From Eledone cirrhosa (lineage: Eukaryota), in contig OZ024742.1 in the NCBI GenBank assembly GCA_964016885.1, positions 186,992,001 through 187,056,000 of the forward strand: a DNA stretch of 64,000 bases. Direction: 5' to 3'. Below, piece after piece: positions 2,695 to 64,000 of this stretch. How positions within the stretch are numbered: the stretch's first letter is position 1; each line of letters opens with the position of its first letter. Both the position numbers and the translations under genes were made by a program. A model generated the notes under the pieces. The model was not told the origin of the DNA. It made no database searches and saw only the letters and a program-made list of their open reading frames with translations.

Positions 2695-2747
<53 letters not shown>

Positions 2748-3044
2748 TGAAACAAAATGAAAACGAAATTTCATTTCTCACTCTTAGTATGGCACTTACT
2801 TAAATGTAAGTATGCATGTATACGTACATACATATATGTATACAGACGTACAGTAGCATGCACATATATATATATATATACATATATACATACATATGCA
2901 TACAGGTACACATACATATATGCACGTATCAGTTTAGCGGCGCTAACGTCGCTTTGTTCGTTTGTAAACAAACTGAACAGCCTGAATTTATGCCATACGG
3001 TGTTAAGGCAACCACGTCACCTTTTTGTTCAACACTGACACAGG

Positions 3045-3089
3045 AACGATGTACTAGTTTCAAGCTTGTTAGCTATCATCAGCACCGTT
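3045..3089 (-). ncRNA. Type I hammerhead ribozyme (further minus-strand copies at 3511-3555 and 3977-4021)
   Basis: Reverse complement reads AACGGTG-CTGATGA-T-AGCT-aaca-AGCT-T-GAAAC-TA-GTA-CATCGTT: 7-bp stem I, stem II, palindromic ACTAGT stem III, GUA site. Confidence 0.85.
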
Positions 3090-4352
3090 TACCCATCTGC
3101 CAGATAGTTGAACGTTCAAAAGTATATACTTTCCTTATGAAAATTAACGGCTGAGCAGCCTAATTTGCATATTGAGTGAGTTAAATCGGTCAGGCATACC
3201 GAAAACGATAAATTGAAACAAAATGAAAACGAAATTTCATTTCTCACTCTTAGTATGGCACTTACTTAAATGTAAGTATGCATGTATACGTACATACATA
3301 TATGTATACAGACGTACAGTAGCATGCACATATATATATATATATACATATATACATACATATGCATACAGGTACACATACATATATGCACGTATCAGTT
3401 TAGCGGCGCTAACGTCGCTTTGTTCGTTTGTAAACAAACTGAACAGCCTGAATTTATGCCATACGGTGTTAAGGCAACCACGTCACCTTTTTGTTCAACA
3501 CTGACACAGGAACGATGTACTAGTTTCAAGCTTGTTAGCTATCATCAGCACCGTTTACCCATCTGCCAGATAGTTGAACGTTCAAAAGTATATACTTTCC
3601 TTATGAAAATTAACGGCTGAGCAGCCTAATTTGCATATTGAGTGAGTTAAATCGGTCAGGCATACCGAAAACGATAAATTGAAACAAAATGAAAACGAAA
3701 TTTCATTTCTCACTCTTAGTATGGCACTTACTTAAATGTAAGTATGCATGTATACGTACATACATATATGTATACAGACGTACAGTAGCATGCACATATA
3801 TATATATATATACATATATACATACATATGCATACAGGTACACATACATATATGCACGTATCAGTTTAGCGGCGCTAACGTCGCTTTGTTCGTTTGTAAA
3901 CAAACTGAACAGCCTGAATTTATGCCATACGGTGTTAAGGCAACCACGTCACCTTTTTGTTCAACACTGACACAGGAACGATGTACTAGTTTCAAGCTTG
4001 TTAGCTATCATCAGCACCGTTTACCCATCTGCCAGATAGTTGAACGATACGTGCATATATGTATGTGTACCTGTATGCATATGTATGTATATATGTATAT
4101 ATATATATATATGTGCATGCTACTGTACGTCTGTATACATATATGTATGTACGTATACATGCATACTTACATTTAAGTAAGTGCCATACTAAGAGTGAGA
4201 AATGAAATTTCGTTTTCATTTTGTTTCAATTTATCGTTTTCGGTATGCCTGACCGATTTAACTCACTCAATATGCAAATTAGGCTGCTCAGCCGTTAATT
4301 TTCATAAGGAAAGTATATACTTTTGAACGTTCAACTATCTGGCAGATGGGTA

Positions 4353-4397
4353 AACGGTGCTGATGATAGCTAACAAGCTTGAAACTAGTACATCGTT
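4353..4397 (+). ncRNA. Type I hammerhead ribozyme (further copy at 4819-4863)
   Basis: AACGGTG-CTGATGA-TAGCTAACAAGCTT-GAAAC-TA-GTA-CATCGTT read directly on the + strand. Confidence 0.85.
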
Positions 4398-5105
4398 CCT
4401 GTGTCAGTGTTGAACAAAAAGGTGACGTGGTTGCCTTAACACCGTATGGCATAAATTCAGGCTGTTCAGTTTGTTTACAAACGAACAAAGCGACGTTAGC
4501 GCCGCTAAACTGATACGTGCATATATGTATGTGTACCTGTATGCATATGTATGTATATATGTATATATATATATATATGTGCATGCTACTGTACGTCTGT
4601 ATACATATATGTATGTACGTATACATGCATACTTACATTTAAGTAAGTGCCATACTAAGAGTGAGAAATGAAATTTCGTTTTCATTTTGTTTCAATTTAT
4701 CGTTTTCGGTATGCCTGACCGATTTAACTCACTCAATATGCAAATTAGGCTGCTCAGCCGTTAATTTTCATAAGGAAAGTATATACTTTTGAACGTTCAA
4801 CTATCTGGCAGATGGGTAAACGGTGCTGATGATAGCTAACAAGCTTGAAACTAGTACATCGTTCCTGTGTCAGTGTTGAACAAAAAGGTGACGTGGTTGC
4901 CTTAACACCGTATGGCATAAATTCAGGCTGTTCAGTTTGTTTACAAACGAACAAAGCGACGTTAGCGCCGCTAAACTGATACGTGCATATATGTATGTGT
5001 ACCTGTATGCATATGTATGTATATATGTATATATATATATATATGTGCATGCTACTGTACGTCTGTATACATATATGTATGTACGTATACATGCATACTT
5101 ACATT

Positions 5106-5147
<42 letters not shown>

Positions 5148-10517: not shown

Positions 10518-11004
10518 TCTCTGTTTCTCTCACCTTCTTTCGCCCCCTCTGTCAGTTACACTTCTCTCGACTGGCCTCTTCCTCGCACTTCCACTCACTC
10601 ACTCTCTGCTTCTCCCCTTCTCACTTCCTCCCGTTTGGCCTGAAGTGGTGTCCTTTCTTGCTCACATCTCACTCCTGTCGCACGGTCTGTTGTCTCTCGC
10701 TCAGGAAATCCACACAGCTTAAGCTGATCGTATTCCCATGTGCTTGTTTTCTCCTATCTTTGCGTTGCTATCCTTATATGTTTGTTTACTTGTCTCGCTC
10801 GCTTTACGCGATTTACTTGTCCCAATAGCTTTATTTAGCTATTGCTCGCACCAACTGGAGGTATATGATTTTTAAAGCGATGAAATACCAATGAAGGTTG
10901 GAAAATCATTGATGATGGACTATTTTTATCATATGTAACCCATGTGCAACCACGCAGTATTCTTTCTTCTTATGTTTTATATATACTTATATATATATAT
11001 ATAT

Positions 11005-11235
11005 ATTATTAAAATAACAGATTAAAGTTTAAGCAAAGAATCGCTGCTTTCACTTTAACGGGATCTTCTGAAACGGGATCTTCAGAAGAACCCTTTAAGA
11101 GTGAAAGCAGCGATTCTTTGCTTAAACTTTAATCTGTTATTTTAATAAATATTTGCTCTACGGTTCATATATATTTGAGATATATTTATCCTTATCGAGC
11201 CCTCTTTGGATTTTATGCTTCAAATTTATTATTAT

Positions 11236-11240
<5 letters not shown>
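11005..11240. mobile_element. Fold-back element with a degenerate HHR-like core in each arm
   Basis: 11005-11070 is the reverse complement of ~11080-11148. Core reads CAGAAGA-..CCC..-GTGAAAGC. A remnant of the same arm lies at 9344-9380. Confidence 0.55.
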
Positions 11241-11283
<43 letters not shown>

Positions 11284-11285
<2 letters not shown>

Positions 11286-14200
11286 CGTAAACTCCGTTCC
11301 ACTTATTCTAGTAGGCTTTTATATTTATATGTGAGCTGATAGAGTACAGTCTAAGGATTTACAGAAACCCATGAAGCTAGATTTAACACCTTTCTAGTGG
11401 GTCCGGGTATGATTTTACATTCATTTAAATTATTGACGTATTGTTTTATTGATATTTTTTATCTGTTTGGCCCGAATCTTCCTTTATCGATTTTAAATCG
11501 TATGGTTGATTGTAGACTTGTTCTATATGTGACGGTATTTTAACGATAGTTATAGCTCTGATTCATCTGAATTATTGAGCCCTCTGCCGCTCATATCGAA
11601 TTTCGTTTTTCGTGAACTCGTGCGCCGATTTTTCGATACTCGATCTTTCTAATATATTTAGCTCTGGACTTAGCTATCCACCAGTTAATTTTATTGCTCA
11701 TTTTTTGTCGATTCTATTGAGTGATGAATAGCTTTTGTTTTATTTTAACATGTCTATTGAGCACTCTAATTCGATATGTGTATTTCCACATTCACTCGAA
11801 TTGTTTTCGCGGATATAGGGGTCATCTCCCTTGTCTAATGCCATGTGCGTTTTTCACCGCTAGTTGACTCCTCTGCCGCCAGGAAAAAACTCGTTGACAA
11901 CGTAAACTCCGTTCCACTTATTCTAGTAGGCTTTTATATTTATATGTGAGCTGATAGAGTACAGTCTAAGGATTTACAGAAACCCATGAAGCTAGATTTA
12001 ACACCTTTCTAGTGGGTCCGGGTATGATTTTACATTCATTTAAATTATTGACGTATTGTTTTATTGATATTTTTTATCTGTTTGGCCCGAATCTTCCTTT
12101 ATCGATTTTAAATCGTATGGTTGATTGTAGACTTGTTCTATATGTGACGGTATTTTAACGATAGTTATAGCTCTGATTCATCTGAATTATTGAGCCCTCT
12201 GCCGCTCATATCGAATTTCGTTTTTCGTGAACTCGTGCGCCGATTTTTCGATACTCGATCTTTCTAATATATTTAGCTCTGGACTTAGCTATCCACCAGT
12301 TAATTTTATTGCTCATTTTTTGTCGATTCTATTGAGTGATGAATAGCTTTTGTTTTATTTTAACATGTCTATTGAGCACTCTAATTCGATATGTGTATTT
12401 CCACATTCACTCGAATTGTTTTCGCGGATATAGGGGTCATCTCCCTTGTCTAATGCCATGTGCGTTTTTCACCGCTAGTTGACTCCTCTGCCGCCAGGAA
12501 AAAACTCGTTGACAACGTAAACTCCGTTCCACTTATTCTAGTAGGCTTTTATATTTATATGTGAGCTGATAGAGTACAGTCTAAGGATTTACAGAAACCC
12601 ATGAAGCTAGATTTAACACCTTTCTAGTGGGTCCGGGTATGATTTTACATTCATTTAAATTATTGACGTATTGTTTTATTGATATTTTTTATCTGTTTGG
12701 CCCGAATCTTCCTTTATCGATTTTAAATCGTATGGTTGATTGTAGACTTGTTCTATATGTGACGGTATTTTAACGATAGTTATAGCTCTGATTCATCTGA
12801 ATTATTGAGCCCTCTGCCGCTCATATCGAATTTCGTTTTTCGTGAACTCGTGCGCCGATTTTTCGATACTCGATCTTTCTAATATATTTAGCTCTGGACT
12901 TAGCTATCCACCAGTTAATTTTATTGCTCATTTTTTGTCGATTCTATTGAGTGATGAATAGCTTTTGTTTTATTTTAACATGTCTATTGAGCACTCTAAT
13001 TCGATATGTGTATTTCCACATTCACTCGAATTGTTTTCGCGGATATAGGGGTCATCTCCCTTGTCTAATGCCATGTGCGTTTTTCACCGCTAGTTGACTC
13101 CTCTGCCGCCAGGAAAAAACTCGTTGACAACGTAAACTCCGTTCCACTTATTCTAGTAGGCTTTTATATTTATATGTGAGCTGATAGAGTACAGTCTAAG
13201 GATTTACAGAAACCCATGAAGCTAGATTTAACACCTTTCTAGTGGGTCCGGGTATGATTTTACATTCATTTAAATTATTGACGTATTGTTTTATTGATAT
13301 TTTTTATCTGTTTGGCCCGAATCTTCCTTTATCGATTTTAAATCGTATGGTTGATTGTAGACTTGTTCTATATGTGACGGTATTTTAACGATAGTTATAG
13401 CTCTGATTCATCTGAATTATTGAGCCCTCTGCCGCTCATATCGAATTTCGTTTTTCGTGAACTCGTGCGCCGATTTTTCGATACTCGATCTTTCTAATAT
13501 ATTTAGCTCTGGACTTAGCTATCCACCAGTTAATTTTATTGCTCATTTTTTGTCGATTCTATTGAGTGATGAATAGCTTTTGTTTTATTTTAACATGTCT
13601 ATTGAGCACTCTAATTCGATATGTGTATTTCCACATTCACTCGAATTGTTTTCGCGGATATAGGGGTCATCTCCCTTGTCTAATGCCATGTGCGTTTTTC
13701 ACCGCTAGTTGACTCCTCTGCCGCCAGGAAAAAACTCGTTGACAACGTAAACTCCGTTCCACTTATTCTAGTAGGCTTTTATATTTATATGTGAGCTGAT
13801 AGAGTACAGTCTAAGGATTTACAGAAACCCATGAAGCTAGATTTAACACCTTTCTAGTGGGTCCGGGTATGATTTTACATTCATTTAAATTATTGACGTA
13901 TTGTTTTATTGATATTTTTTATCTGTTTGGCCCGAATCTTCCTTTATCGATTTTAAATCGTATGGTTGATTGTAGACTTGTTCTATATGTGACGGTATTT
14001 TAACGATAGTTATAGCTCTGATTCATCTGAATTATTGAGCCCTCTGCCGCTCATATCGAATTTCGTTTTTCGTGAACTCGTGCGCCGATTTTTCGATACT
14101 CGATCTTTCTAATATATTTAGCTCTGGACTTAGCTATCCACCAGTTAATTTTATTGCTCATTTTTTGTCGATTCTATTGAGTGATGAATAGCTTTTGTTT

Positions 14201-17200
14201 TATTTTAACATGTCTATTGAGCACTCTAATTCGATATGTGTATTTCCACATTCACTCGAATTGTTTTCGCGGATATAGGGGTCATCTCCCTTGTCTAATG
14301 CCATGTGCGTTTTTCACCGCTAGTTGACTCCTCTGCCGCCAGGAAAAAACTCGTTGACAACGTAAACTCCGTTCCACTTATTCTAGTAGGCTTTTATATT
14401 TATATGTGAGCTGATAGAGTACAGTCTAAGGATTTACAGAAACCCATGAAGCTAGATTTAACACCTTTCTAGTGGGTCCGGGTATGATTTTACATTCATT
14501 TAAATTATTGACGTATTGTTTTATTGATATTTTTTATCTGTTTGGCCCGAATCTTCCTTTATCGATTTTAAATCGTATGGTTGATTGTAGACTTGTTCTA
14601 TATGTGACGGTATTTTAACGATAGTTATAGCTCTGATTCATCTGAATTATTGAGCCCTCTGCCGCTCATATCGAATTTCGTTTTTCGTGAACTCGTGCGC
14701 CGATTTTTCGATACTCGATCTTTCTAATATATTTAGCTCTGGACTTAGCTATCCACCAGTTAATTTTATTGCTCATTTTTTGTCGATTCTATTGAGTGAT
14801 GAATAGCTTTTGTTTTATTTTAACATGTCTATTGAGCACTCTAATTCGATATGTGTATTTCCACATTCACTCGAATTGTTTTCGCGGATATAGGGGTCAT
14901 CTCCCTTGTCTAATGCCATGTGCGTTTTTCACCGCTAGTTGACTCCTCTGCCGCCAGGAAAAAACTCGTTGACAACGTAAACTCCGTTCCACTTATTCTA
15001 GTAGGCTTTTATATTTATATGTGAGCTGATAGAGTACAGTCTAAGGATTTACAGAAACCCATGAAGCTAGATTTAACACCTTTCTAGTGGGTCCGGGTAT
15101 GATTTTACATTCATTTAAATTATTGACGTATTGTTTTATTGATATTTTTTATCTGTTTGGCCCGAATCTTCCTTTATCGATTTTAAATCGTATGGTTGAT
15201 TGTAGACTTGTTCTATATGTGACGGTATTTTAACGATAGTTATAGCTCTGATTCATCTGAATTATTGAGCCCTCTGCCGCTCATATCGAATTTCGTTTTT
15301 CGTGAACTCGTGCGCCGATTTTTCGATACTCGATCTTTCTAATATATTTAGCTCTGGACTTAGCTATCCACCAGTTAATTTTATTGCTCATTTTTTGTCG
15401 ATTCTATTGAGTGATGAATAGCTTTTGTTTTATTTTAACATGTCTATTGAGCACTCTAATTCGATATGTGTATTTCCACATTCACTCGAATTGTTTTCGC
15501 GGATATAGGGGTCATCTCCCTTGTCTAATGCCATGTGCGTTTTTCACCGCTAGTTGACTCCTCTGCCGCCAGGAAAAAACTCGTTGACAACGTAAACTCC
15601 GTTCCACTTATTCTAGTAGGCTTTTATATTTATATGTGAGCTGATAGAGTACAGTCTAAGGATTTACAGAAACCCATGAAGCTAGATTTAACACCTTTCT
15701 AGTGGGTCCGGGTATGATTTTACATTCATTTAAATTATTGACGTATTGTTTTATTGATATTTTTTATCTGTTTGGCCCGAATCTTCCTTTATCGATTTTA
15801 AATCGTATGGTTGATTGTAGACTTGTTCTATATGTGACGGTATTTTAACGATAGTTATAGCTCTGATTCATCTGAATTATTGAGCCCTCTGCCGCTCATA
15901 TCGAATTTCGTTTTTCGTGAACTCGTGCGCCGATTTTTCGATACTCGATCTTTCTAATATATTTAGCTCTGGACTTAGCTATCCACCAGTTAATTTTATT
16001 GCTCATTTTTTGTCGATTCTATTGAGTGATGAATAGCTTTTGTTTTATTTTAACATGTCTATTGAGCACTCTAATTCGATATGTGTATTTCCACATTCAC
16101 TCGAATTGTTTTCGCGGATATAGGGGTCATCTCCCTTGTCTAATGCCATGTGCGTTTTTCACCGCTAGTTGACTCCTCTGCCGCCAGGAAAAAACTCGTT
16201 GACAACGTAAACTCCGTTCCACTTATTCTAGTAGGCTTTTATATTTATATGTGAGCTGATAGAGTACAGTCTAAGGATTTACAGAAACCCATGAAGCTAG
16301 ATTTAACACCTTTCTAGTGGGTCCGGGTATGATTTTACATTCATTTAAATTATTGACGTATTGTTTTATTGATATTTTTTATCTGTTTGGCCCGAATCTT
16401 CCTTTATCGATTTTAAATCGTATGGTTGATTGTAGACTTGTTCTATATGTGACGGTATTTTAACGATAGTTATAGCTCTGATTCATCTGAATTATTGAGC
16501 CCTCTGCCGCTCATATCGAATTTCGTTTTTCGTGAACTCGTGCGCCGATTTTTCGATACTCGATCTTTCTAATATATTTAGCTCTGGACTTAGCTATCCA
16601 CCAGTTAATTTTATTGCTCATTTTTTGTCGATTCTATTGAGTGATGAATAGCTTTTGTTTTATTTTAACATGTCTATTGAGCACTCTAATTCGATATGTG
16701 TATTTCCACATTCACTCGAATTGTTTTCGCGGATATAGGGGTCATCTCCCTTGTCTAATGCCATGTGCGTTTTTCACCGCTAGTTGACTCCTCTGCCGCC
16801 AGGAAAAAACTCGTTGACAACGTAAACTCCGTTCCACTTATTCTAGTAGGCTTTTATATTTATATGTGAGCTGATAGAGTACAGTCTAAGGATTTACAGA
16901 AACCCATGAAGCTAGATTTAACACCTTTCTAGTGGGTCCGGGTATGATTTTACATTCATTTAAATTATTGACGTATTGTTTTATTGATATTTTTTATCTG
17001 TTTGGCCCGAATCTTCCTTTATCGATTTTAAATCGTATGGTTGATTGTAGACTTGTTCTATATGTGACGGTATTTTAACGATAGTTATAGCTCTGATTCA
17101 TCTGAATTATTGAGCCCTCTGCCGCTCATATCGAATTTCGTTTTTCGTGAACTCGTGCGCCGATTTTTCGATACTCGATCTTTCTAATATATTTAGCTCT

Positions 17201-20200
17201 GGACTTAGCTATCCACCAGTTAATTTTATTGCTCATTTTTTGTCGATTCTATTGAGTGATGAATAGCTTTTGTTTTATTTTAACATGTCTATTGAGCACT
17301 CTAATTCGATATGTGTATTTCCACATTCACTCGAATTGTTTTCGCGGATATAGGGGTCATCTCCCTTGTCTAATGCCATGTGCGTTTTTCACCGCTAGTT
17401 GACTCCTCTGCCGCCAGGAAAAAACTCGTTGACAACGTAAACTCCGTTCCACTTATTCTAGTAGGCTTTTATATTTATATGTGAGCTGATAGAGTACAGT
17501 CTAAGGATTTACAGAAACCCATGAAGCTAGATTTAACACCTTTCTAGTGGGTCCGGGTATGATTTTACATTCATTTAAATTATTGACGTATTGTTTTATT
17601 GATATTTTTTATCTGTTTGGCCCGAATCTTCCTTTATCGATTTTAAATCGTATGGTTGATTGTAGACTTGTTCTATATGTGACGGTATTTTAACGATAGT
17701 TATAGCTCTGATTCATCTGAATTATTGAGCCCTCTGCCGCTCATATCGAATTTCGTTTTTCGTGAACTCGTGCGCCGATTTTTCGATACTCGATCTTTCT
17801 AATATATTTAGCTCTGGACTTAGCTATCCACCAGTTAATTTTATTGCTCATTTTTTGTCGATTCTATTGAGTGATGAATAGCTTTTGTTTTATTTTAACA
17901 TGTCTATTGAGCACTCTAATTCGATATGTGTATTTCCACATTCACTCGAATTGTTTTCGCGGATATAGGGGTCATCTCCCTTGTCTAATGCCATGTGCGT
18001 TTTTCACCGCTAGTTGACTCCTCTGCCGCCAGGAAAAAACTCGTTGACAACGTAAACTCCGTTCCACTTATTCTAGTAGGCTTTTATATTTATATGTGAG
18101 CTGATAGAGTACAGTCTAAGGATTTACAGAAACCCATGAAGCTAGATTTAACACCTTTCTAGTGGGTCCGGGTATGATTTTACATTCATTTAAATTATTG
18201 ACGTATTGTTTTATTGATATTTTTTATCTGTTTGGCCCGAATCTTCCTTTATCGATTTTAAATCGTATGGTTGATTGTAGACTTGTTCTATATGTGACGG
18301 TATTTTAACGATAGTTATAGCTCTGATTCATCTGAATTATTGAGCCCTCTGCCGCTCATATCGAATTTCGTTTTTCGTGAACTCGTGCGCCGATTTTTCG
18401 ATACTCGATCTTTCTAATATATTTAGCTCTGGACTTAGCTATCCACCAGTTAATTTTATTGCTCATTTTTTGTCGATTCTATTGAGTGATGAATAGCTTT
18501 TGTTTTATTTTAACATGTCTATTGAGCACTCTAATTCGATATGTGTATTTCCACATTCACTCGAATTGTTTTCGCGGATATAGGGGTCATCTCCCTTGTC
18601 TAATGCCATGTGCGTTTTTCACCGCTAGTTGACTCCTCTGCCGCCAGGAAAAAACTCGTTGACAACGTAAACTCCGTTCCACTTATTCTAGTAGGCTTTT
18701 ATATTTATATGTGAGCTGATAGAGTACAGTCTAAGGATTTACAGAAACCCATGAAGCTAGATTTAACACCTTTCTAGTGGGTCCGGGTATGATTTTACAT
18801 TCATTTAAATTATTGACGTATTGTTTTATTGATATTTTTTATCTGTTTGGCCCGAATCTTCCTTTATCGATTTTAAATCGTATGGTTGATTGTAGACTTG
18901 TTCTATATGTGACGGTATTTTAACGATAGTTATAGCTCTGATTCATCTGAATTATTGAGCCCTCTGCCGCTCATATCGAATTTCGTTTTTCGTGAACTCG
19001 TGCGCCGATTTTTCGATACTCGATCTTTCTAATATATTTAGCTCTGGACTTAGCTATCCACCAGTTAATTTTATTGCTCATTTTTTGTCGATTCTATTGA
19101 GTGATGAATAGCTTTTGTTTTATTTTAACATGTCTATTGAGCACTCTAATTCGATATGTGTATTTCCACATTCACTCGAATTGTTTTCGCGGATATAGGG
19201 GTCATCTCCCTTGTCTAATGCCATGTGCGTTTTTCACCGCTAGTTGACTCCTCTGCCGCCAGGAAAAAACTCGTTGACAACGTAAACTCCGTTCCACTTA
19301 TTCTAGTAGGCTTTTATATTTATATGTGAGCTGATAGAGTACAGTCTAAGGATTTACAGAAACCCATGAAGCTAGATTTAACACCTTTCTAGTGGGTCCG
19401 GGTATGATTTTACATTCATTTAAATTATTGACGTATTGTTTTATTGATATTTTTTATCTGTTTGGCCCGAATCTTCCTTTATCGATTTTAAATCGTATGG
19501 TTGATTGTAGACTTGTTCTATATGTGACGGTATTTTAACGATAGTTATAGCTCTGATTCATCTGAATTATTGAGCCCTCTGCCGCTCATATCGAATTTCG
19601 TTTTTCGTGAACTCGTGCGCCGATTTTTCGATACTCGATCTTTCTAATATATTTAGCTCTGGACTTAGCTATCCACCAGTTAATTTTATTGCTCATTTTT
19701 TGTCGATTCTATTGAGTGATGAATAGCTTTTGTTTTATTTTAACATGTCTATTGAGCACTCTAATTCGATATGTGTATTTCCACATTCACTCGAATTGTT
19801 TTCGCGGATATAGGGGTCATCTCCCTTGTCTAATGCCATGTGCGTTTTTCACCGCTAGTTGACTCCTCTGCCGCCAGGAAAAAACTCGTTGACAACGTAA
19901 ACTCCGTTCCACTTATTCTAGTAGGCTTTTATATTTATATGTGAGCTGATAGAGTACAGTCTAAGGATTTACAGAAACCCATGAAGCTAGATTTAACACC
20001 TTTCTAGTGGGTCCGGGTATGATTTTACATTCATTTAAATTATTGACGTATTGTTTTATTGATATTTTTTATCTGTTTGGCCCGAATCTTCCTTTATCGA
20101 TTTTAAATCGTATGGTTGATTGTAGACTTGTTCTATATGTGACGGTATTTTAACGATAGTTATAGCTCTGATTCATCTGAATTATTGAGCCCTCTGCCGC

Positions 20201-20266
20201 TCATATCGAATTTCGTTTTTCGTGAACTCGTGCGCCGATTTTTCGATACTCGATCTTTCTAATATA
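11284..20266. repeat. Tandem array of a 615-bp non-coding unit, ~14.6 apparently identical copies, flanked by (TA)n
   Basis: CGTAAACTCCGTTCC recurs at 11286, 11901, 12516 and onward (period 615). No ORF of 60 aa or more. No differences seen between copies. Confidence 0.97.
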
Positions 20267-20284
20267 TATATATATATATATATT

Positions 20285-35856: not shown

Positions 35857-37777
35857 TGCCGCCGACCTTAAGGTAGATAGAGAGCTAAGCGGGTGGGGTT
35901 CCTCACCCTGAAAGATCACAAGGCAGACTTTACTTCTAACGCCACATGTAGACTAATAAACCCGGCACGCACAGATATGGGACTAGTCAGTAAGGCCATA
36001 CTTAGGACATAGTTAAGAGCATTAGGACCAAGTCCAACCTGCCCCAGTGGGAGAACTGCGACTCCGTAATTAAGTGGTTTAACTCCTTAAAATCCAAAAA
36101 AAGCGAAATTCCCACAGTTTGAAATTCTCGATTTTTACCCGTCGATCTCAGAGACCCTGTTAAAGAAAGCGTTGGACTTCGCTACCACTTATACCACCGT
36201 TGATGGTTTAGACAGGGAAATCATCGCTCACTGCCGGAAAACCCTCCTCTTCAACGACGGAGTAGCCTGGGCAAAGAAGTCTACAACTTCAGACCTATTC
36301 GACGTCTCCATGGGATCGTTTGACAGTGCTGACGTATGTGACTTGGTTGACCTATTTATCTTAGACATATTACGTGTTAGATTCCCGGACTTCCACACGG
36401 GAATATATCGCGACGATGGACTGATTTTATCGAGCCATAAAAGTTGTCACGACCTCGACCGGTTTAAAAAAGACTTAGCTTCTACCTTCAATGAGTTAGG
36501 ACTTAGGATAACAGTAGCCACCAACCTCTCTAGCATAGATTTCTTAGACATTAATTTAGACCTTCGCACACACACGCACAGACCTTTCCATAAGCTAAAC
36601 GAGAAACTAAATTACATTCACAAGAACTCATGCCACCCTCCCACTGTTTTTAGAAACTTCGTTAAGAATATCAGTACTAGAATCTCAAACCTCTCCTCTA
36701 ATAAGGCTATCTTTGACAGGGCGGCACCCTACTATAACACGGCGTTGGTTAACAGCGGCTTCTCACAGCCTATCACTTACTCTCCTACTAGCAACAACAC
36801 CATTAGGAAAACTAAGCGCAACAATAGACAGACTATCCGGTTCTCTCCTCCCTTCTAACTCAACGTTAAAAGTAATGTAGGAAAAAAATGTCTAGCCCTC
36901 TTAGATAGACACTTTCCCATAGGTCATAAATACCGCTCCATCTTTAACCGACACAAAGTTAAACTAGGATACTCCTGCACTAAGAACATGAAAGCGCACA
37001 TTACCATCAGCCCTAGGAGCAACACCCCACCAGGGTGCTTTTGCCGTAAGCCTGAAGCTTGCCCCCTTCAACAGCAATGCAACACACGAGCTGTAATTTA
37101 CGAGGCTGTGGTCACTTCCAACCGACCAAACGAACCACAGGAGGTCAAATCCTATGTGGGCATGGTGGAGGGCCGATTTAAGGAACGTTTCCTGAACCAC
37201 CAGTCTACCTTCAGGCACCTGGACAGACGTTCATCCACGAAACTCGCGAGACACGTATGGTCCCTTAAGGACTCAAGTATAGACTACTCCATTCAATGGA
37301 AAGGCATCACTAAGTTCAAGCCATACGCAAGGGGAAATCCGACGCGTGGCTTATGTATTGACGAACTAAAGAGATTGCGCAATAGTGATTGCCTAAACAC
37401 GTGAAATGAATTTTTCACACGTTGTCCACACGTCGCTAAACACCTATTGCATAACTACAAGGCTCCGGACTGATTCTTTGTAATTTTATTTTTCAACCAA
37501 ACACTTTTCGGACTTTCGCAGTTATCTCCCTTACACCTCTCGAACGCAGTCTAGTATTGCCTGTGTGAAGTGACCGGGTTTCTGCGCACCCGCGTTCGTA
37601 CGGTTGCCCTTCCTGTTCCTATAACCAATAACCATGCCCATTCCGATCTGAGGATCCGCTAAGGTGAAAAATTGTTCTCGGGATGGTGAACTAACTGTTG
37701 TGTAACCACTTCTACCTAACTCGTCCCTTGGACTGAGTGCTCTACCACTACGGATATTACCTTCCAGTGTTCCACCA

Positions 37778-37780
<3 letters not shown>
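35857..37780 (+). mobile_element. 5'-truncated, disrupted Penelope-like element, probably Naiad-type (RT + GIY-YIG + pLTR)
   Basis: TLKDHK..CRLINPA, MGSFDSADVCDLV, YRDDGL, SCHPP, CFCRKPEACPL..C, VIYEAVV..YVGMVEGRFKERFLNH, and LCIDE..LNT*NEFFTRCPH. Contains frameshifts and stops. Confidence 0.88.
37638..37686 (+). ncRNA. Hammerhead-like ribozyme in the PLE pLTR
   Basis: CCATTCCGA-T-CTGAGGA-TCC-gctaa-GGT-GAAA-AATTG-TTC-TCGGGATGG, with a 9-bp stem I offset by one base. Confidence 0.65.
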
Positions 37781-53676: not shown

Positions 53677-57648
<3,972 letters not shown>

Positions 57649-58427: not shown

Positions 58428-61400
58428 CCAGAAACTAGATACACCACCCACCCCATCATCTGTGTACACTAAACACAACAGCCAGATAACGACACATTTT
58501 CACCTTCACCGCCACCGCTCACTACGGCCATCATTACCACCACTATCCCATCACCGCCGCCACCACCCCTTGACTCCGCTACAGCACCATCACTACAGTA
58601 ATACGGTCACATCACCGCCACCACTGCCTCGGTATCGACATCACCACCACCACTGTCTCAGTATCGCTAACGCCGCCAGTCTCCCACTTCCCTGCTGGCT
58701 GCTACTTCCACATTATAGAATTCCTACTACTAACAAAGAGGAAGGCATCAAAATATATAGATAGACCCAAAAGAAAAAAGAAAAAACAAACAACAAAACC
58801 AAAGCAGCACAGCAACAACAGCAAAAAACGAGAAAAACAAACAGAGAAAAACAAAAACAAAAAAAAGAAACCCCAAAAACGTAAAGAAAATAAGAATGAA
58901 GAGAGAAGCAGGCGGACGGACAGAGAAGAGGGGGGAAAAAGTAAAACTTAAAAAACTAAAACTAAGTCAGACATTCGAACACTACATTACAATGAAACTT
59001 ATGCTTATTCATTTCTGGGGCCCTTTCTGCCTGTGTGTTTGTTTGTTTATGTGTGTTCGTATACAGCGTGGCGATAATGCCACACAAGGGCCAAGTGGGA
59101 TGGCGGATCCACAGATGGCTATGTAAACATACATCCGCCAATCCTCGATAAGAGTGTTTAAATATCGAACATAAACAGTTCGAATAACGGTGAAATGGAG
59201 ACTAGAACGTCATGTGACAGACTCTCACCCAACAGGTGCCCCCTGGCTCAGCAGCAGGAACCTGACTGTCAACCAAATACTGCTGATGTTGGAGGAAGGA
59301 GAAGAAGGAAAGGGGCCAGAACCAACTGGACGAAAGAATTGAATAGAACTGTTATGCAATGCTACCTGAAAAGTAACCCCAAGGAGAGGGGCTACAGGAG
59401 ACGGATGCATAACATCTGGAACGAGATTGGTTTATTTAAATTAGATGAACAAAAATTGGCCGGGCAGGCTCGGGTAATAAGAACTAATGGGTGGATAAGC
59501 GAGCTGGAACTGGAGGAACTGAGCAGAGAGAATGGCTTGGAGATGGCGGGTGTAGTATGCCAGACAAACGAGCCGGTGGGAAATGAAGGTGAGGAGGTCC
59601 TGAGAACGGAGGAACCACCCGAAGCAGACAATGATCTGAGTACTGAGATAAATAATACCTGGAACAGAGATACGGCCACTGAGGAGATGAATGCTGACGG
59701 GCTAGGACAAGATTCGGTTGACATCCTAAATTTAGTGGTAGATGAATTGAACAATGATAGTGGGAGACCTATGAACCTAAGATTTGTAGACAGGAAAAAG
59801 TTAAAAGAAACAACAGCTAAGGTAAACAAAGTCATCCCATACCTTGAGGCGAGGAGCCTTCACCAGTGCAACAATATCCTCAGAGCAACAGCAAATACGG
59901 TGAGGAAACTACTTGGTATAAAAGCGAGAGGAAACAACAGACAAGAAAGAGCAGAGCCGTGGTGGAAGAAGCGACTGAGTGGGCAAATCGGGGAAATGAG
60001 AAATGACATAGGAAAGCTTGAGTCACTACTGAATGGGACACTAAAAAACATAGGCACTAAAAATAGACTGGAAATAAAATACAAAACTAGGAGTAAAAAG
60101 CTAAATATTATCATAGAGGAATTGAAGCAACGCATTGTAGCAAAGAGTGCAAAAATCAGGCGATACGAGAACAGAGTCAGTCAGTATAAACAGAACCGCA
60201 TGTTCGACAACAACCAGAAGATGCTGTTTGGACAGCTTGAGGGCAAAGAAAGAGGCAACGACTTGATCCCTGGGGCGGAGCAAACTAAAACATTCTGGAG
60301 AGGAATATGGGAGCAGGATGTTAGACACAACGCCCAGGCAGGGTGGATTGAGACAGTACAGAGGGAGATCGGTGAGCAGGCACAGCAACAGACTGATTTG
60401 AGTATCACAGTTGAAACTCTTAAGGGGCAAGCCAAAAAACTAACCAACTGGAAATCACCAGGCCCAGATGGTGTGCAGGGGTATTGGATTAAACATTTAA
60501 CATCCCTCCACCCGAAGCTGACGGCCATGTTCAATGACTGCTTGGTGTCGGGTGAGGTGCCAGATGGTTGACAAAAGGTACCACAGTTCTGATAATGAAA
60601 GACCGAATCAAGGGTAATGATTTTACCAACTATAGACCTATCACATGTCTGCCCGTAATGTGGAAACTGTTGACGAGCATTGTGTCTGAGGAAATCTACC
60701 ATCACCTCCACACAAACAACTTGTTACCGGACGAACAGAAAGGATGCCGAAAGAAGTCACGTGGTACAAAGGACCAGTTGCTTATTGATAAGATGGTAAT
60801 GGGGAATTGCAGGAGGAGACACACTGATCTTGCTATGGGATGGATAGACTACAGAAAGGCATTTGACATGGTGCCTCATTCCTGGATCACCAAAAGCCTG
60901 GAGATCTTCAGGGTGGCGGATAACATCAGACAGTTGCTAGGCAGGAGTATGGGGTCCTGGGAGACAGAGTTGACATCAACTGGAGTATCCTTGGGAAGCG
61001 TGAAGATCAAGAGAGGTATCTTCCAGGGAGATAGCCTGTCCCCTCTGTTGTTTGTCCTTGCCCTGATGCCCTTGACCATTATGCTGCGAAAAGTGAGAGC
61101 AGGATACAAGTTGGGAAGGGGAGAGCTTACCATCAATCACCTCCTCTTCATGGACGATCTTAAGCTCTTCGGGAAGAGTGAGAAGGAGTTGGATGTGCTT
61201 GTTGACACTGTCCGTATTTTCAGCAGTGATATATGTATGCAGTTTGGTATTGGTAAATGTGGAGTCATTGTGATGAAGAGGGGTAGGTTGAGCAGAAGTA
61301 ACGGGATCCAGATACCAACAGGTGAGATGATAAAGGAAATTGACTCTGAGGAAGGATACAAGTATTTGGGCGTTCTGGAGGCTGATGGCATAAAGAACAA

Positions 61401-62659
61401 AAAAATGAAGGAATTGTTAAGAACTGAATACATTCGGAGAGTAAGGAGCGTATTGAAGTCACATCTGAACAGCAGAAATGCCATAAGCGCAGTAAATTCC
61501 CGAGCTGTGTCTATTATTAGGTACAGTGCGGGAATTCTGAGATGGAATGTTGCTGAACAGAAAGAAATGGATAGGAAGACTAGGAAGCTATTGACTATCT
61601 ACAACATGTTCCACAAGAGGAGTGATGTCGATAGACTCTACCTAAGGAGATCTGAGGGTGGAAGAGGTCTTATCAGCATAGAGGACTGTGTTCAGATGGA
61701 GAAAAACAACCTATACAAATCCGTGACCTATAGTAAGGAGCCAATGCTCAGAGCTGTACTGAAGGAGGGGACAGTAGGCCAGGGGATGTCCAGGGAGGAA
61801 ATAACATCAAGGAGGAAGAGCAGCCTTAAGGGAAAACCCCTTCATAGTACCTTCTTTGAGAAAACTGAATTTAGAGATCCACAGACATGGAACTGGTTGA
61901 GAAGAGGAGACCTCAAAAAGGCTACAGAAGGAATGCTAATGGCTGCGCAGGAGCAGGCCCTCAAAACGAAGTGGTTGAAGCACCATATCTACAAGGAGGA
62001 GGCCAGCCCACTGTGCAGGATCTGTGGAGAGAGAGAGGAGACTGTGGCTCACATTGTGTCCGAGTGTAAACACCTAGCCCAGACCCACTATAAGGGCTGG
62101 AGACACGATGTGATGGGCAGGGTGATCCACTGGCACCTGTGCAAAGTAAACAATCTACAACATTCTGAGAAATGGTATGAGCATAGGCCAGAGGCGGTGA
62201 TGGAGAACAATCAGGTGAAGGTGCTGTGGGATTTTAGGATACAGACGGACAAATAACTGGAACACAATAGACCTGACCTGGTGGTTGTGGACAAAGAAAA
62301 AAGATCGTGCCTGATTGTGGATGTGGCCTGCCCGTTCGACATGAGAGTGCAAGAGAAGGAGAGGGAGAAAATTAACCGATACCAGGACCTAAAGTGGGAG
62401 GTGAAAAGGATTTGGAACTGCCATGAAGTCAAAGTGATCCCGATTGTCATAGGCGCACTGGGGACTATCTCCAAAGGTTTCCAGGGATGGTTAAAGAAAA
62501 TCGGCCCCTTCACGCTTTTTGGAACGCTTCAAAAGGCATGCTTGCTTGGAACAGCAAGAACCCTCCGATACGTCCTGAATATCTGAGGCTGCAGGTAGTG
62601 GCTTGATATTCAATCCAACGGACTTTCCAGTTAACCAACATCAATGACTGAGATTCAAG

Positions 62660-62699
<40 letters not shown>

Positions 62700-62720
62700 G
62701 ATAATGATAATAATAATAAT
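58426..62720 (+). mobile_element. Near full-length R4/Dong-clade non-LTR retrotransposon with an (AAT)n tail; 5' boundary uncertain
   Basis: Single ORF with RT and RLE, a 3' UTR ending at 62660 followed by (AAT)n, and a flanking direct repeat (58346-58425 and 62721-62812). Confidence 0.9.
59195..62586 (+). pseudogene. R4/Dong ORF: Myb-like N-terminus, RT, CCHC knuckle and RLE; one frameshift (~60567) and one in-frame TAA (62254-62256)
   Basis: [106 protein letters not shown]. Confidence 0.95.
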
Positions 62721-62766
62721 AAAGACGACAAGAACAAGAACAAGAACAACAACAACAATAATAATG

Positions 62767-62812
<46 letters not shown>

Positions 62813-62814
<2 letters not shown>

Positions 62815-64000
62815 GGATCGATGCCATAAACACGCTTGCCATACCAGTAGTAACCTACAGTTACAATGTCATCAACTGGTCAAGCACAGAGATCCGTAGG
62901 CTCGATACAAAAATCCGAAAATTCTTAACCATGCACAGAATGCATCACCCTCAGGCAGACATAGATAGAATATATCTCCCTAGGAAAGAAGGAGGACGTG
63001 GGTTAATCCAGTTAGACATTGCGTTGAAAACTGCAACAATTGGATTATCCACATATCTAAGGGAATCACATGATTGTATGATCAAACTCGTTTTGAAACA
63101 CGAAAGCACCAAAAGATCATATTCCATTACAAAAGATGCACAAAGATACAGTAATGGACTACAAATTTCAGAAGTCCCATTTACTGCTGAAATGGAAAAC
63201 ACAGAAAAAGCAAAGCAGGTAAAAGTAACTGCAAAGAAAGAACTGCTACAGAAACTGGCTAAGAAATGGCAAGAAAAGCCTCTGTATGGAAAATACCCAG
63301 AGCGAGCTAACAATCCTGATGTTGACAAAACTTTAACCCATCAGTGGATGGCATCCTCTGGACTGAAATCAGAGATTGAAGGACTGATTATATCGGCACA
63401 AGATCAGTGTCTGCCAACAAAAAATTACCAAGCCAACATAATAAAAAATGGGTGCAGCCCATTATGCCGTGTATGCAAAAAACAACCAGAGACCATTGAC
63501 CATATAATTTCAATGTGCAGTCCTATAGCTCCAACCGAATACCTAAACAGGCATGACAGAGCTGCACAATACATACATTGGATAATGTGTAAGCATTTTG
63601 ACCTGCCCCATCAAAAGAATTGGTGGGAGCATCAACCACCTCCCATACTTGAAAAAGATCACATCTCAATCTTGTGGAACTTTAGCATCCAAACAGACCG
63701 AAAAATAGATGCAAATAGACCTGATATAATATTGAAGGACTTTCAAAGGAGGGTATGCCTGCTAATTGATATGTCTGTTCCAATAGACAAGAATGTATCT
63801 ATAAAAACATTTGAAAAATTGAGCAAGTATAAGGACCTGGAGATAGAAATTGGAAAAATGTGGAAATTGAGAACTAAAACAATACCAGTGGTTGTAGGCG
63901 CTCTGGGAATGATACCTAAGGGGTCTAACGACTACTTATCGCAAATCCCAGGAAACCGGCGTATAGGAGAAATACAAAAGATAGTACTAATGGGAACTGC
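62813..64000 (+). mobile_element. Second, 5'-truncated R4/Dong-clade element of a different family; runs off the window
   Basis: Reads RIDAINTLAIPVVTYSY..RKFLTMHRMHHPQADIDRIYLPRKEGGRGL..SAQDQ..CRVC..ETIDHIISMC..RHD..NRPDII..IDMSVP..KYKDL..PVVVGALG. Confidence 0.92.

What the first reader, a model, noticed from the sequence alone, without database searches (positions are those of the whole stretch)
11284..20266. 9-kb apparently perfect 615-bp array between (TA)n tracts with no canonical hammerhead: possible circle-derived insertion of an unknown family
Seen: ~14.6 copies with no visible differences, a non-integer copy number, and both ends joined to (TA)n. The left end falls inside the mini-palindrome CGTTG-A-CAACG, and CCTCTGCCGC occurs twice per unit. 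There is no ORF, and I recognised no tRNA, 5S or snRNA. The architecture parallels the HHR arrays in this window, yet I found no CTGANGA..GAAA..TH on either strand. Inference: a very recent rolling-circle product, either from an RNA circle using a different ribozyme or from a Helitron-like DNA circle, or else a nascent satellite.
Basis: partly seen in the sequence, partly recalled or inferred. Interest (0 to 1): 0.75.

Follow-up and report, generated by a model that had tools for sequence, protein, structure and literature searches.

The report
Hidden-hammerhead retrozyme with Penelope footprint
This perfect 9-kb array is one of more than 700 scattered insertions of a 615-base non-coding repeat; each unit is predicted to fold into an unusually built self-cutting hammerhead RNA, and the fixed ends and occasional back-to-back arms suggest it was likely copied round and round, probably from a circular RNA, by a borrowed Penelope-type transposon enzyme.

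Summary
Confirmed: 14.6 identical 615-bp units (11284-20267) between (TA)n tracts. It is neither unique nor ribozyme-free. The genome holds 723 exact copies of its 3' junction, plus older subfamilies down to 55% identity. 40 of 43 young arrays end at one unit position, and 5' ends are scattered.

Each unit carries an atypical type I hammerhead across the unit junction: U3-A8 core, A/C opposite A at 10.1:11.1, and a ~76-nt helix II. Rfam and motif searches miss it. Helix II covaries across subfamilies, and the core stays conserved in loci picked without it.

A second end, 109 nt upstream, was predicted from a young Hydra-like Penelope element. It occurs at 12 loci; 8 are head-to-head two-armed insertions whose other arm ends at the main site, the Penelope signature.

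Verdict: a non-autonomous, retrozyme-type element likely moved by Penelope target-primed reverse transcription; a circular template is inferred. Cleavage and RNA are untested, and the partner is only suggested. The scan noted other retrozyme families in this genome before; a sequence look-up found no note on this one.

The parts
11284..20267 (+). Polar head-to-tail array, 14.61 identical 615-bp units; sense strand + (ribozyme strand)
11889..12023 (+). Atypical type I hammerhead, first complete copy of 14 (repeats every 615 bp to 20022). Stem I 11889-11893 pairs with 12019-12023; core U3-A9 11894-11900; extra C 11901; helix II 11902-11977; extra A 11978; GAAA 11979-11982; helix III 11982-12017
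12016..12019 (+). Predicted GUC cleavage site, cut between 12018 and 12019 (unit phase 120|121); same site at 11403|11404
   Evidence: inferred from hammerhead topology; untested
11284..11408 (+). 5'-truncated first hammerhead; the array starts at core position A8
20262..20283 (+). Fixed 'long' 3' end (phase 374, base 20267) running into the right (TA)n tract; inferred main reverse-transcription start
11535..11548 (+). 'Short' end site (phase 265, after TATTTTAA; repeats each unit, last at 20158), used by one arm of two-armed insertions elsewhere in the genome
11554..11585 (+). GCTCT...GAGCCCTCT hairpin motif between the two ends; collinear with the Hydra-like element's end region
   Evidence: (D4)
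11757..11768 (+). 12-mer shared exactly with the 5' UTR of the Hydra-like element, downstream of the long end in both
11470..11474 (+). Conserved CCCG box predicted to sequester stem I (off-switch in the monomer circle)
   Evidence: 26 of 27 hammerhead copies from independently picked loci carry it
11239..11283 (.). Left (TA)n target tract
11001..11241 (.). Neighbour, not part of the array: fold-back fragment of the Hydra-like Penelope pseudo-LTR (arms 11001-11074 reverse, 11081-11241 forward); the array sits in the (TA)n at its end

Best explanation
The array is one recent insertion of an abundant non-coding family whose 615-nt unit is predicted to fold into an atypical type I hammerhead, and it was likely written into a (TA)n tract by a borrowed Penelope-type reverse transcriptase and endonuclease. 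Shown: dispersal, polarity, one main fixed 3' end, scattered 5' ends, a rarer second end 109 nt upstream on back-to-back arms, array-wide single haplotypes, and a covarying three-helix structure. Inferred steps: (1) read-through transcripts of arrays self-cleave at GUC (phase 120|121) into monomers; (2) monomers are ligated to circles, in which a conserved CCCG box would hold stem I shut; (3) the enzyme of a (TA)n-targeting PLE, most likely the young Hydra-like family with collinear end motifs, binds the phase 255-490 region, nicks (TA)n and primes inside the RNA at phase 374; (4) it rolls around the template until it falls off, giving 0.6-19 units; (5) occasionally the other DNA strand primes at phase 265, giving a two-armed insertion.
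For: 723 exact long-end junctions, control 0; 2025 matches to a young-subfamily motif. 40 of 43 arrays end at phase 374 and 42 of 43 at 367-374; 5' phases do not depart from uniform (KS p=0.48). Older subfamilies reach (TA)n at the homologous place in 29 of 30 loci. Structure: 92.7% of cells paired, helix II with 5 of 8 pairs changed on both sides, slid controls 29-52%; the three-way junction is the unconstrained MFE in 7 of 7 fragments (stem I is 4 bp in one); core conservation 0.88 versus 0.69 in 30 loci picked by a motif outside the ribozyme. Short end: 12 loci, control 0; 8 of 12 are head-to-head pairs whose other arm ends at phase 374 in (TA)n, and the arms share most variants in 6 of 6 pairs compared. 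Variants in 21 arrays (143 units): 76 fixed in all units, 17 single-unit, 4 partial. The Hydra-like family has open 713-codon frames at several loci, a CxCX5C linker and long and short ends in (TA)n 88 nt apart (15 long, 10 short, 1 tandem, 4 other of 30). Literature: inverted 5'-truncated arm, tail and Hydra (TA)n targeting (10.1101/2021.04.23.441226); two internal start sites downstream of the hammerhead (PMC11167929).
Against: No cleavage, RNA or circle was tested. The core departs from consensus (A or C opposite A at 10.1:11.1 in 55 of 56; U3-G8 in 9 and C3-A8 in 3 of 56), so it may cut slowly. With 40 nt or more of upstream context, predicted stem I pairing drops to 0.18 or less for the window unit, and it is weak even in minimal fragments of three others. 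In the one PLE reconstituted in vitro, cleavage was not needed for insertion (PMC11167929), and 8 of 9 predicted Xenopus retrozymes did not cleave. The Hydra link is thin: gapped local alignment is no better than shuffles in 6 of 6 tests, the 12-mer statistic was chosen after seeing it (2 of 3000 shuffles; the 9-mer 526 of 3000), the 12-mer is altered in older subfamilies, and no autonomous element with this hammerhead was found. Covariation controls ignore relatedness, and pairs-with-double-change was not significant (54 of 500). Assembly polishing could hide differences within arrays.
Confidence: 0.62

Rival explanations
1. Same Penelope-type enzyme, but the template is linear: an uncut multimeric transcript of a parent array, or a linear monomer copied repeatedly by template jumping. 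The hammerhead would then be slow, protein-assisted or dispensable.
For: The PAc protein uses unprocessed RNA and hammerhead mutants still insert (PMC11167929). The core is non-consensus and stem I is often sequestered in folding predictions. Homogeneous parents give homogeneous daughters. Four variants are present in only part of an array.
Against: Variants private to one sampled array are present in all its units (115T>C in 8 of 8, 36T>C in 4 of 4, 486A>T and 231A>G in 3 of 3), which needs a monomer bottleneck. Copying multimers with 5' truncation can only shorten arrays. The core and cleavage triplet are conserved over 45% divergence. Jumping on a linear monomer is not excluded by these data.
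Confidence: 0.25
2. Short insertion followed by local expansion (unequal exchange), or an assembly artefact that inflates or homogenises the array.
For: An older 39-kb relative shows repeated blocks of variants, so arrays can expand in place. No reads spanning this array were examined.
Against: Three other long arrays (13.5-18.7 units) share nearly one haplotype at different loci, two with no internal variants; length tied to haplotype fits insertion at length. Single-unit variants survive in other arrays, so polishing does not erase everything. This rival does not explain fixed ends or arms.
Confidence: 0.08
3. A DNA rolling-circle element (Helitron-like or other HUH type) with a fixed origin and leaky termination.
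For: One fixed end and one variable end with tandem multimers is also expected from rolling-circle DNA transfer (general knowledge). A small CGA-NNN-TCG hairpin lies near the end.
Against: The terminal bases differ between subfamilies, with no shared CTRR. There is no fixed second terminus (0 of 43 5' ends at 370-380). Head-to-head arms with two ends and a conserved hammerhead fold are not Helitron features.
Confidence: 0.04

Closest known systems
Metazoan non-LTR retrozymes (Cervera and de la Pena 2020, PMC7229834, passages and Discussion read; Li, Clavereau and Pollet 2026, bioRxiv 10.64898/2026.07.22.740005, parts 1-3 of 5 read)
   Same: Dispersed low-GC tandem repeats, one type I hammerhead per unit, no ORF; proposed circular RNA intermediate and PLE mobilisation.
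   Different: Unit 615 bp (150-450 in the 2020 paper, within 51-972 of the 2026 one). Non-canonical core, very long helix II and a stable helix III. Ribozyme predicted blocked in the circle, unlike most metazoan retrozymes. Fixed internal ends and two-armed insertions were not described in the parts I read.
Hydra-clade Penelope-like elements (Craig et al. 2021, bioRxiv 10.1101/2021.04.23.441226, passages read)
   Same: (TA)n targets, hammerhead upstream of the insertion end, 5' truncation, partial tandems, inverted arm. A Hydra-like family in this genome has two ends and collinear end motifs.
   Different: No ORF; overall homology to the candidate's UTR is not significant; ends 109 nt apart versus a 30-40 bp tail in the paper (88 nt in the local family).
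PAc Poseidon element of Anolis (Frangieh et al. 2024, PMC11167929, parts 1-2 of 4 read)
   Same: Two internal reverse-transcription starts downstream of a hammerhead, AT-rich targets, both DNA strands extended.
   Different: Autonomous; its template need not be cleaved or circular; no long monomer arrays reported in the parts read.
Non-autonomous Chlamys PLEs such as MRC1 (same Craig et al. preprint, passage read)
   Same: [quoted passage not shown]
   Different: Algal, mostly without hammerheads, and with clear 3' similarity to the autonomous partner.
Hammerhead core variants: U3-A8 (PMC4209133 parts 1-2 of 4; PMC3088659 passages), extra nucleotide after A9, U10.1-U11.1 mismatch (PMC3088659)
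   Same: Each single departure has precedent; U3-A8 is reported active in vitro.
   Different: U3-A8 together with A-A or C-A at 10.1:11.1 and a ~76-nt helix II was not seen in the passages read; Lunse et al. 2017 was not held.

Membership tests
Hammerhead ribozyme (type I) | Three helices around the core, in type I order | tested here: met
Hammerhead ribozyme (type I) | U4 G5 A6, A9, G12 A13 A14, A15.1-U16.1, H17 | tested here: met
   (0.83-0.93 per position in 30 loci not selected on them, 4 of which lose the region); rows were selected on part of the core
Hammerhead ribozyme (type I) | Pair between positions 3 and 8 | tested here: met
   U-A 44, U-G 9, C-A 3 of 56; never the canonical C-G
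Hammerhead ribozyme (type I) | G10.1-C11.1 pair directly next to the core | tested here: not met
   A or C (once G) opposite A, then G-C; local Hydra-like and 466-bp hammerheads show U opposite U there
Hammerhead ribozyme (type I) | Match to an Rfam hammerhead model | tested here: not met
   Rfam at gathering score also reported none of the other hammerheads in the window
Hammerhead ribozyme (type I) | Self-cleavage after H17 | not testable with these tools
   needs in vitro transcription
Non-LTR retrozyme | Dispersed tandem units, each with a type I hammerhead, no ORF, GC under 50% | tested here: met
Non-LTR retrozyme | Unit 150-450 bp with canonical core (2020 definition) | tested here: not met
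   615 bp, variant core; within the 51-972 bp range of the 2026 preprint
Non-LTR retrozyme | Expressed as linear and circular monomer RNA | not testable with these tools
   no RNA run was available to lay
PLE-mobilised element | Fixed 3' end, 5' truncation, partial tandems | tested here: met
PLE-mobilised element | Inverted 5'-truncated arm and two alternative ends (tail) | tested here: met
   8 of 12 short-end loci; rare overall (12 versus 723 junctions); tail 109 nt
PLE-mobilised element | Sequence homology to the pLTR of an autonomous PLE | tested here: inconclusive
   collinear short motifs but no significant alignment
Autonomous PLE | RT plus GIY-YIG ORF | tested here: not met
   longest frame 62 codons
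Helitron | Fixed 5' TC and conserved 3' CTRR termini (recalled definition) | tested here: not met
Satellite DNA expanded in place | Variants shared by blocks of units (higher-order structure) | tested here: not met
   0 variants in this array; met in an older 39-kb relative

The most novel reading that the evidence does not exclude
A 615-nt circular RNA with an undescribed hammerhead architecture (U3-A8, A-A/C-A at 10.1:11.1, ~76-nt helix II, built-in off-switch) is copied by a specific Hydra-clade Penelope enzyme in a true rolling-circle target-primed reaction. One event lays down up to about 19 near error-free units (11.5 kb), starting at two mapped sites whose signals mimic the helper's own ends. 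That would be a named helper-parasite pair in which rolling-circle retrotransposition can be reconstituted, and would imply that such retrozymes are missed by standard hammerhead searches.
Probability: 0.35. Interest if true: 0.72.

Novelty: new variant of a known kind. Interest (0 to 1): 0.52.

Why it matters
How animal retrozymes are copied into tandem arrays has been proposed (circular RNA plus a PLE enzyme) but not shown in the papers read. This family supplies mapped start sites, a candidate helper with open reading frames, and very long single-haplotype products, so the step can be tested directly. The ribozyme evades Rfam and CUGANGA descriptors, so retrozyme counts in animal genomes may be too low. 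An older relative shows a route from a retro-inserted array to a satellite.

Tried and rejected
(1) Reading CTGATAGA (11336) as the core with an insertion: not conserved in older subfamilies; it lies inside helix II. (2) Hairpin, HDV-like, pistol and twister ribozymes: compared by eye with recalled consensus motifs, no conserved fit; Rfam negative. (3) The motif in viral contigs: 0. In metagenome contigs: 7 matches, none fitting the model (best E=0.81), taken as chance. (4) A short-helix version of the variant hammerhead in the genome: 0 matches to one strict pattern. (5) An autonomous element carrying this unit: none among the loci held; genome protein searches returned only the one abundant Hydra-like family, so other families were not surveyed. 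(6) Whole-region alignment to the Hydra-like UTR: not significant. (7) Enrichment of 5' ends at the cleavage site: 2 of 43 within phases 116-126. (8) Expression: no RNA holder listed; no evidence either way. Run X14 (RNA only by guess) gave short AT-rich pieces and one 158-nt piece, not used. (9) Reads across the right junction were not examined. (10) Pfam and PDB gave no useful hit for the Hydra-like protein; its clade rests on motifs compared with the paper's text (CxCX5C present; NKT where the paper gives DKT; CCHH absence not tested). (11) Lunse et al. 2017 could not be read; the repeat library of PMC13282606 and Repbase/Dfam were not seen, so the family may already be catalogued under another name.
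Full report
Observation. The period-615 run is perfect from 11284 to 20267 (14.61 copies, 0 differences among 14 full units), 36% GC, with no frame longer than 62 codons. (TA)n lies on both sides. Rfam finds nothing. The host is a 3.0-Gb genome rich in AT microsatellites; a cephalopod is my inference and the wording of earlier scan notes, not a tested fact.

A dispersed, polar family. A search with one unit scored 28 of 471 candidates, all near-identical arrays on many contigs. A young-subfamily motif matches 2025 times and the exact 3' junction 723 times, control 0. I examined 43 arrays: 28 and 15 from the first places listed; two more with an end in an assembly gap were left out. Forty end at unit phase 374, one each at 373, 367 and 265. 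The 5' phases do not depart from uniform (KS p=0.48), 27 of 43 have 8 or more bases of TA at the 5' side, and lengths run from 0.6 to 18.7 units. A few 5' calls are approximate (L033 differs). Related subfamilies of 55-96% identity exist (2732 and 336 further motif matches, partly overlapping the young set). They reach (TA)n at the homologous place in 29 of 30 loci.

One template per insertion. In 21 arrays of three or more units (143 units), 76 variants are fixed in every unit, 17 occur in a single unit and 4 in part of an array. Variants private to one sampled array are array-wide. This implies a monomer bottleneck. It does not by itself separate a circle from repeated jumps on a linear monomer, and polishing could contribute. 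An older 39-kb array shows repeated blocks of variants, so local expansion can follow later.

The hidden ribozyme. Consensus folding of 23 full units from different subfamilies produced a three-way junction across the unit boundary. It reads as a type I hammerhead: 5-bp stem I, core UUGANRA, one extra base, helix II of about 76 nt, one extra A, GAAA, helix III, GUC. On 56 distinct copies (of 82 found) 92.7% of cells pair, helix II has 5 of 8 pairs changed on both sides, and slid controls give 29-52%. The count of double-changed pairs alone is not above shuffles (54 of 500), stems I and III show no double changes, and relatedness is not controlled. The fold is the unconstrained minimum-energy structure in 7 of 7 fragments. 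Those rows were selected on part of the core, so I repeated the test on 30 loci picked by a motif outside the ribozyme. Twelve core positions average 0.88 conservation against 0.69 for 414 other columns (resampling p=0.0003, columns not independent). Positions 3/8 are U-A in 44, U-G in 9 and C-A in 3 of 56, and the pair next to the core is A-A or C-A in 55 of 56. U3-A8 is known from PLE and other natural hammerheads (PMC4209133; PMC3088659), as are an extra base after A9 and a U-U mismatch at 10.1:11.1. Hammerheads of the local Hydra-like element and the 466-bp array show that U-U form. I did not find this combination in searches, but Lunse et al. 2017 was not readable. Against activity: in longer contexts stem I is mostly sequestered, and in 10 of 10 circular monomers its active pairing is 0.01 or less, usually through a downstream CCCG box present in 26 of 27 copies (one of the ten lacks an intact core). 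This may be an off-switch or may mean slow cleavage. The cleavage site lies 254 nt upstream of the fixed end, so cleavage does not make that end.

The Penelope footprint. ORF fragments beside arrays led to an abundant young element with open frames of 713 codons. It has an RT-type YRDD motif, a CxCX5C linker and a GIY-YIG-like C-terminus (seen by eye), matching the Hydra clade as described, which inserts in (TA)n. Its copies end in (TA)n at two sites 88 nt apart (15 long, 10 short, 1 tandem, 4 other of 30); a fold-back piece of its end lies at window 11001-11241. Around these ends it shares a collinear series of short motifs with the unit. Both flanking words together were reached by 0 of 3000 shuffles, but the statistic was chosen afterwards, and gapped alignment is not significant. 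The layout, together with one odd array ending at phase 265, predicted a second end there. It occurs at 12 loci, control 0. Eight are head-to-head pairs whose other arm ends at phase 374 in (TA)n, and four are single arms; the arms share most variants in 6 of 6 pairs compared. Among 39 arrays picked otherwise only one locus had both strands, and there the second copy is a separate, diverged one. An inverted arm and two ends are the PLE hallmarks, explained biochemically by two internal start sites and extension of both DNA strands (PMC11167929). Earlier scan notes on other retrozyme families prompted me to look for arms; the test is my own.

Mechanism and verdict. Shown: dispersal, polarity, two ends, arms, single haplotypes, conserved fold. 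Inferred: transcription, self-cleavage, circularisation, and the identity of the helper. PLE-type mobilisation is well supported (about 0.85-0.9). A circular template with a working ribozyme is the best single account (0.62), and a linear template the main rival. Retrozymes and their PLE link are already proposed (PMC7229834; bioRxiv 10.64898/2026.07.22.740005), and this scan noted other such families in the genome, while a look-up by this sequence found none. It is a new variant of a known kind. Its value lies in the concealed ribozyme architecture, the mapped start sites with a candidate helper, and the length of the error-free products. Supplements of the papers were not opened; they may hold similar hammerhead variants.

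Noticed in passing
window 2742-5107: Perfect two-armed array of a 466-bp unit with a minimal CUGAUGA hammerhead that has U opposite U at 10.1:11.1; appears to be a family already noted by the scan.
   Followed up: partly
window 11001-11241; L220-L248: Young Hydra-like PLE with many open 713-codon frames; its hammerhead-like motif reads CAGAAGA (U4 replaced by A) in 66 of 71 regex matches among the loci held.
   Followed up: partly
window 35902-37780: A second, diverged Hydra-like ORF (35% identity to the first) followed by a minimal hammerhead-like motif near 37648 and an end in (TA)n.
   Followed up: no
L173-L177 (G000:C1:81.71-81.75 Mb): 39-kb array of a 609-bp sister subfamily with the same fixed 3' end, a single 5' truncation and higher-order blocks: an inserted array turning into a satellite.
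   Followed up: partly
C1:13.09, 44.27 and 49.83 Mb arrays (L089-L096, L107): Three of the four longest young arrays share nearly one haplotype, suggesting that array length depends on sequence variant or on a very recent burst.
   Followed up: no
L035 and L037, 5' junctions: The array joins almost directly (1-3 bases of TA) onto the end of another short fold-back element; this could be a template switch between RNAs or insertion at the first TA.
   Followed up: no
public runs: Eleven runs hold half or more of the unit's words, from 7 studies and 8 coded organism labels. X1 holds a single 645-nt contig (one unit plus 30) with 2 differences. Related species, host traces or wider spread could not be told apart.
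   Followed up: partly
window 53972-57645: Two ~2-kb duplicated segments containing hammerhead-like CTGAAGA...GAAA motifs on the minus strand near 55027 and 57045.
   Followed up: no
window ~59000-64000: A-rich stretch with sequence resembling a LINE reverse transcriptase, seen by eye output only.
   Followed up: no
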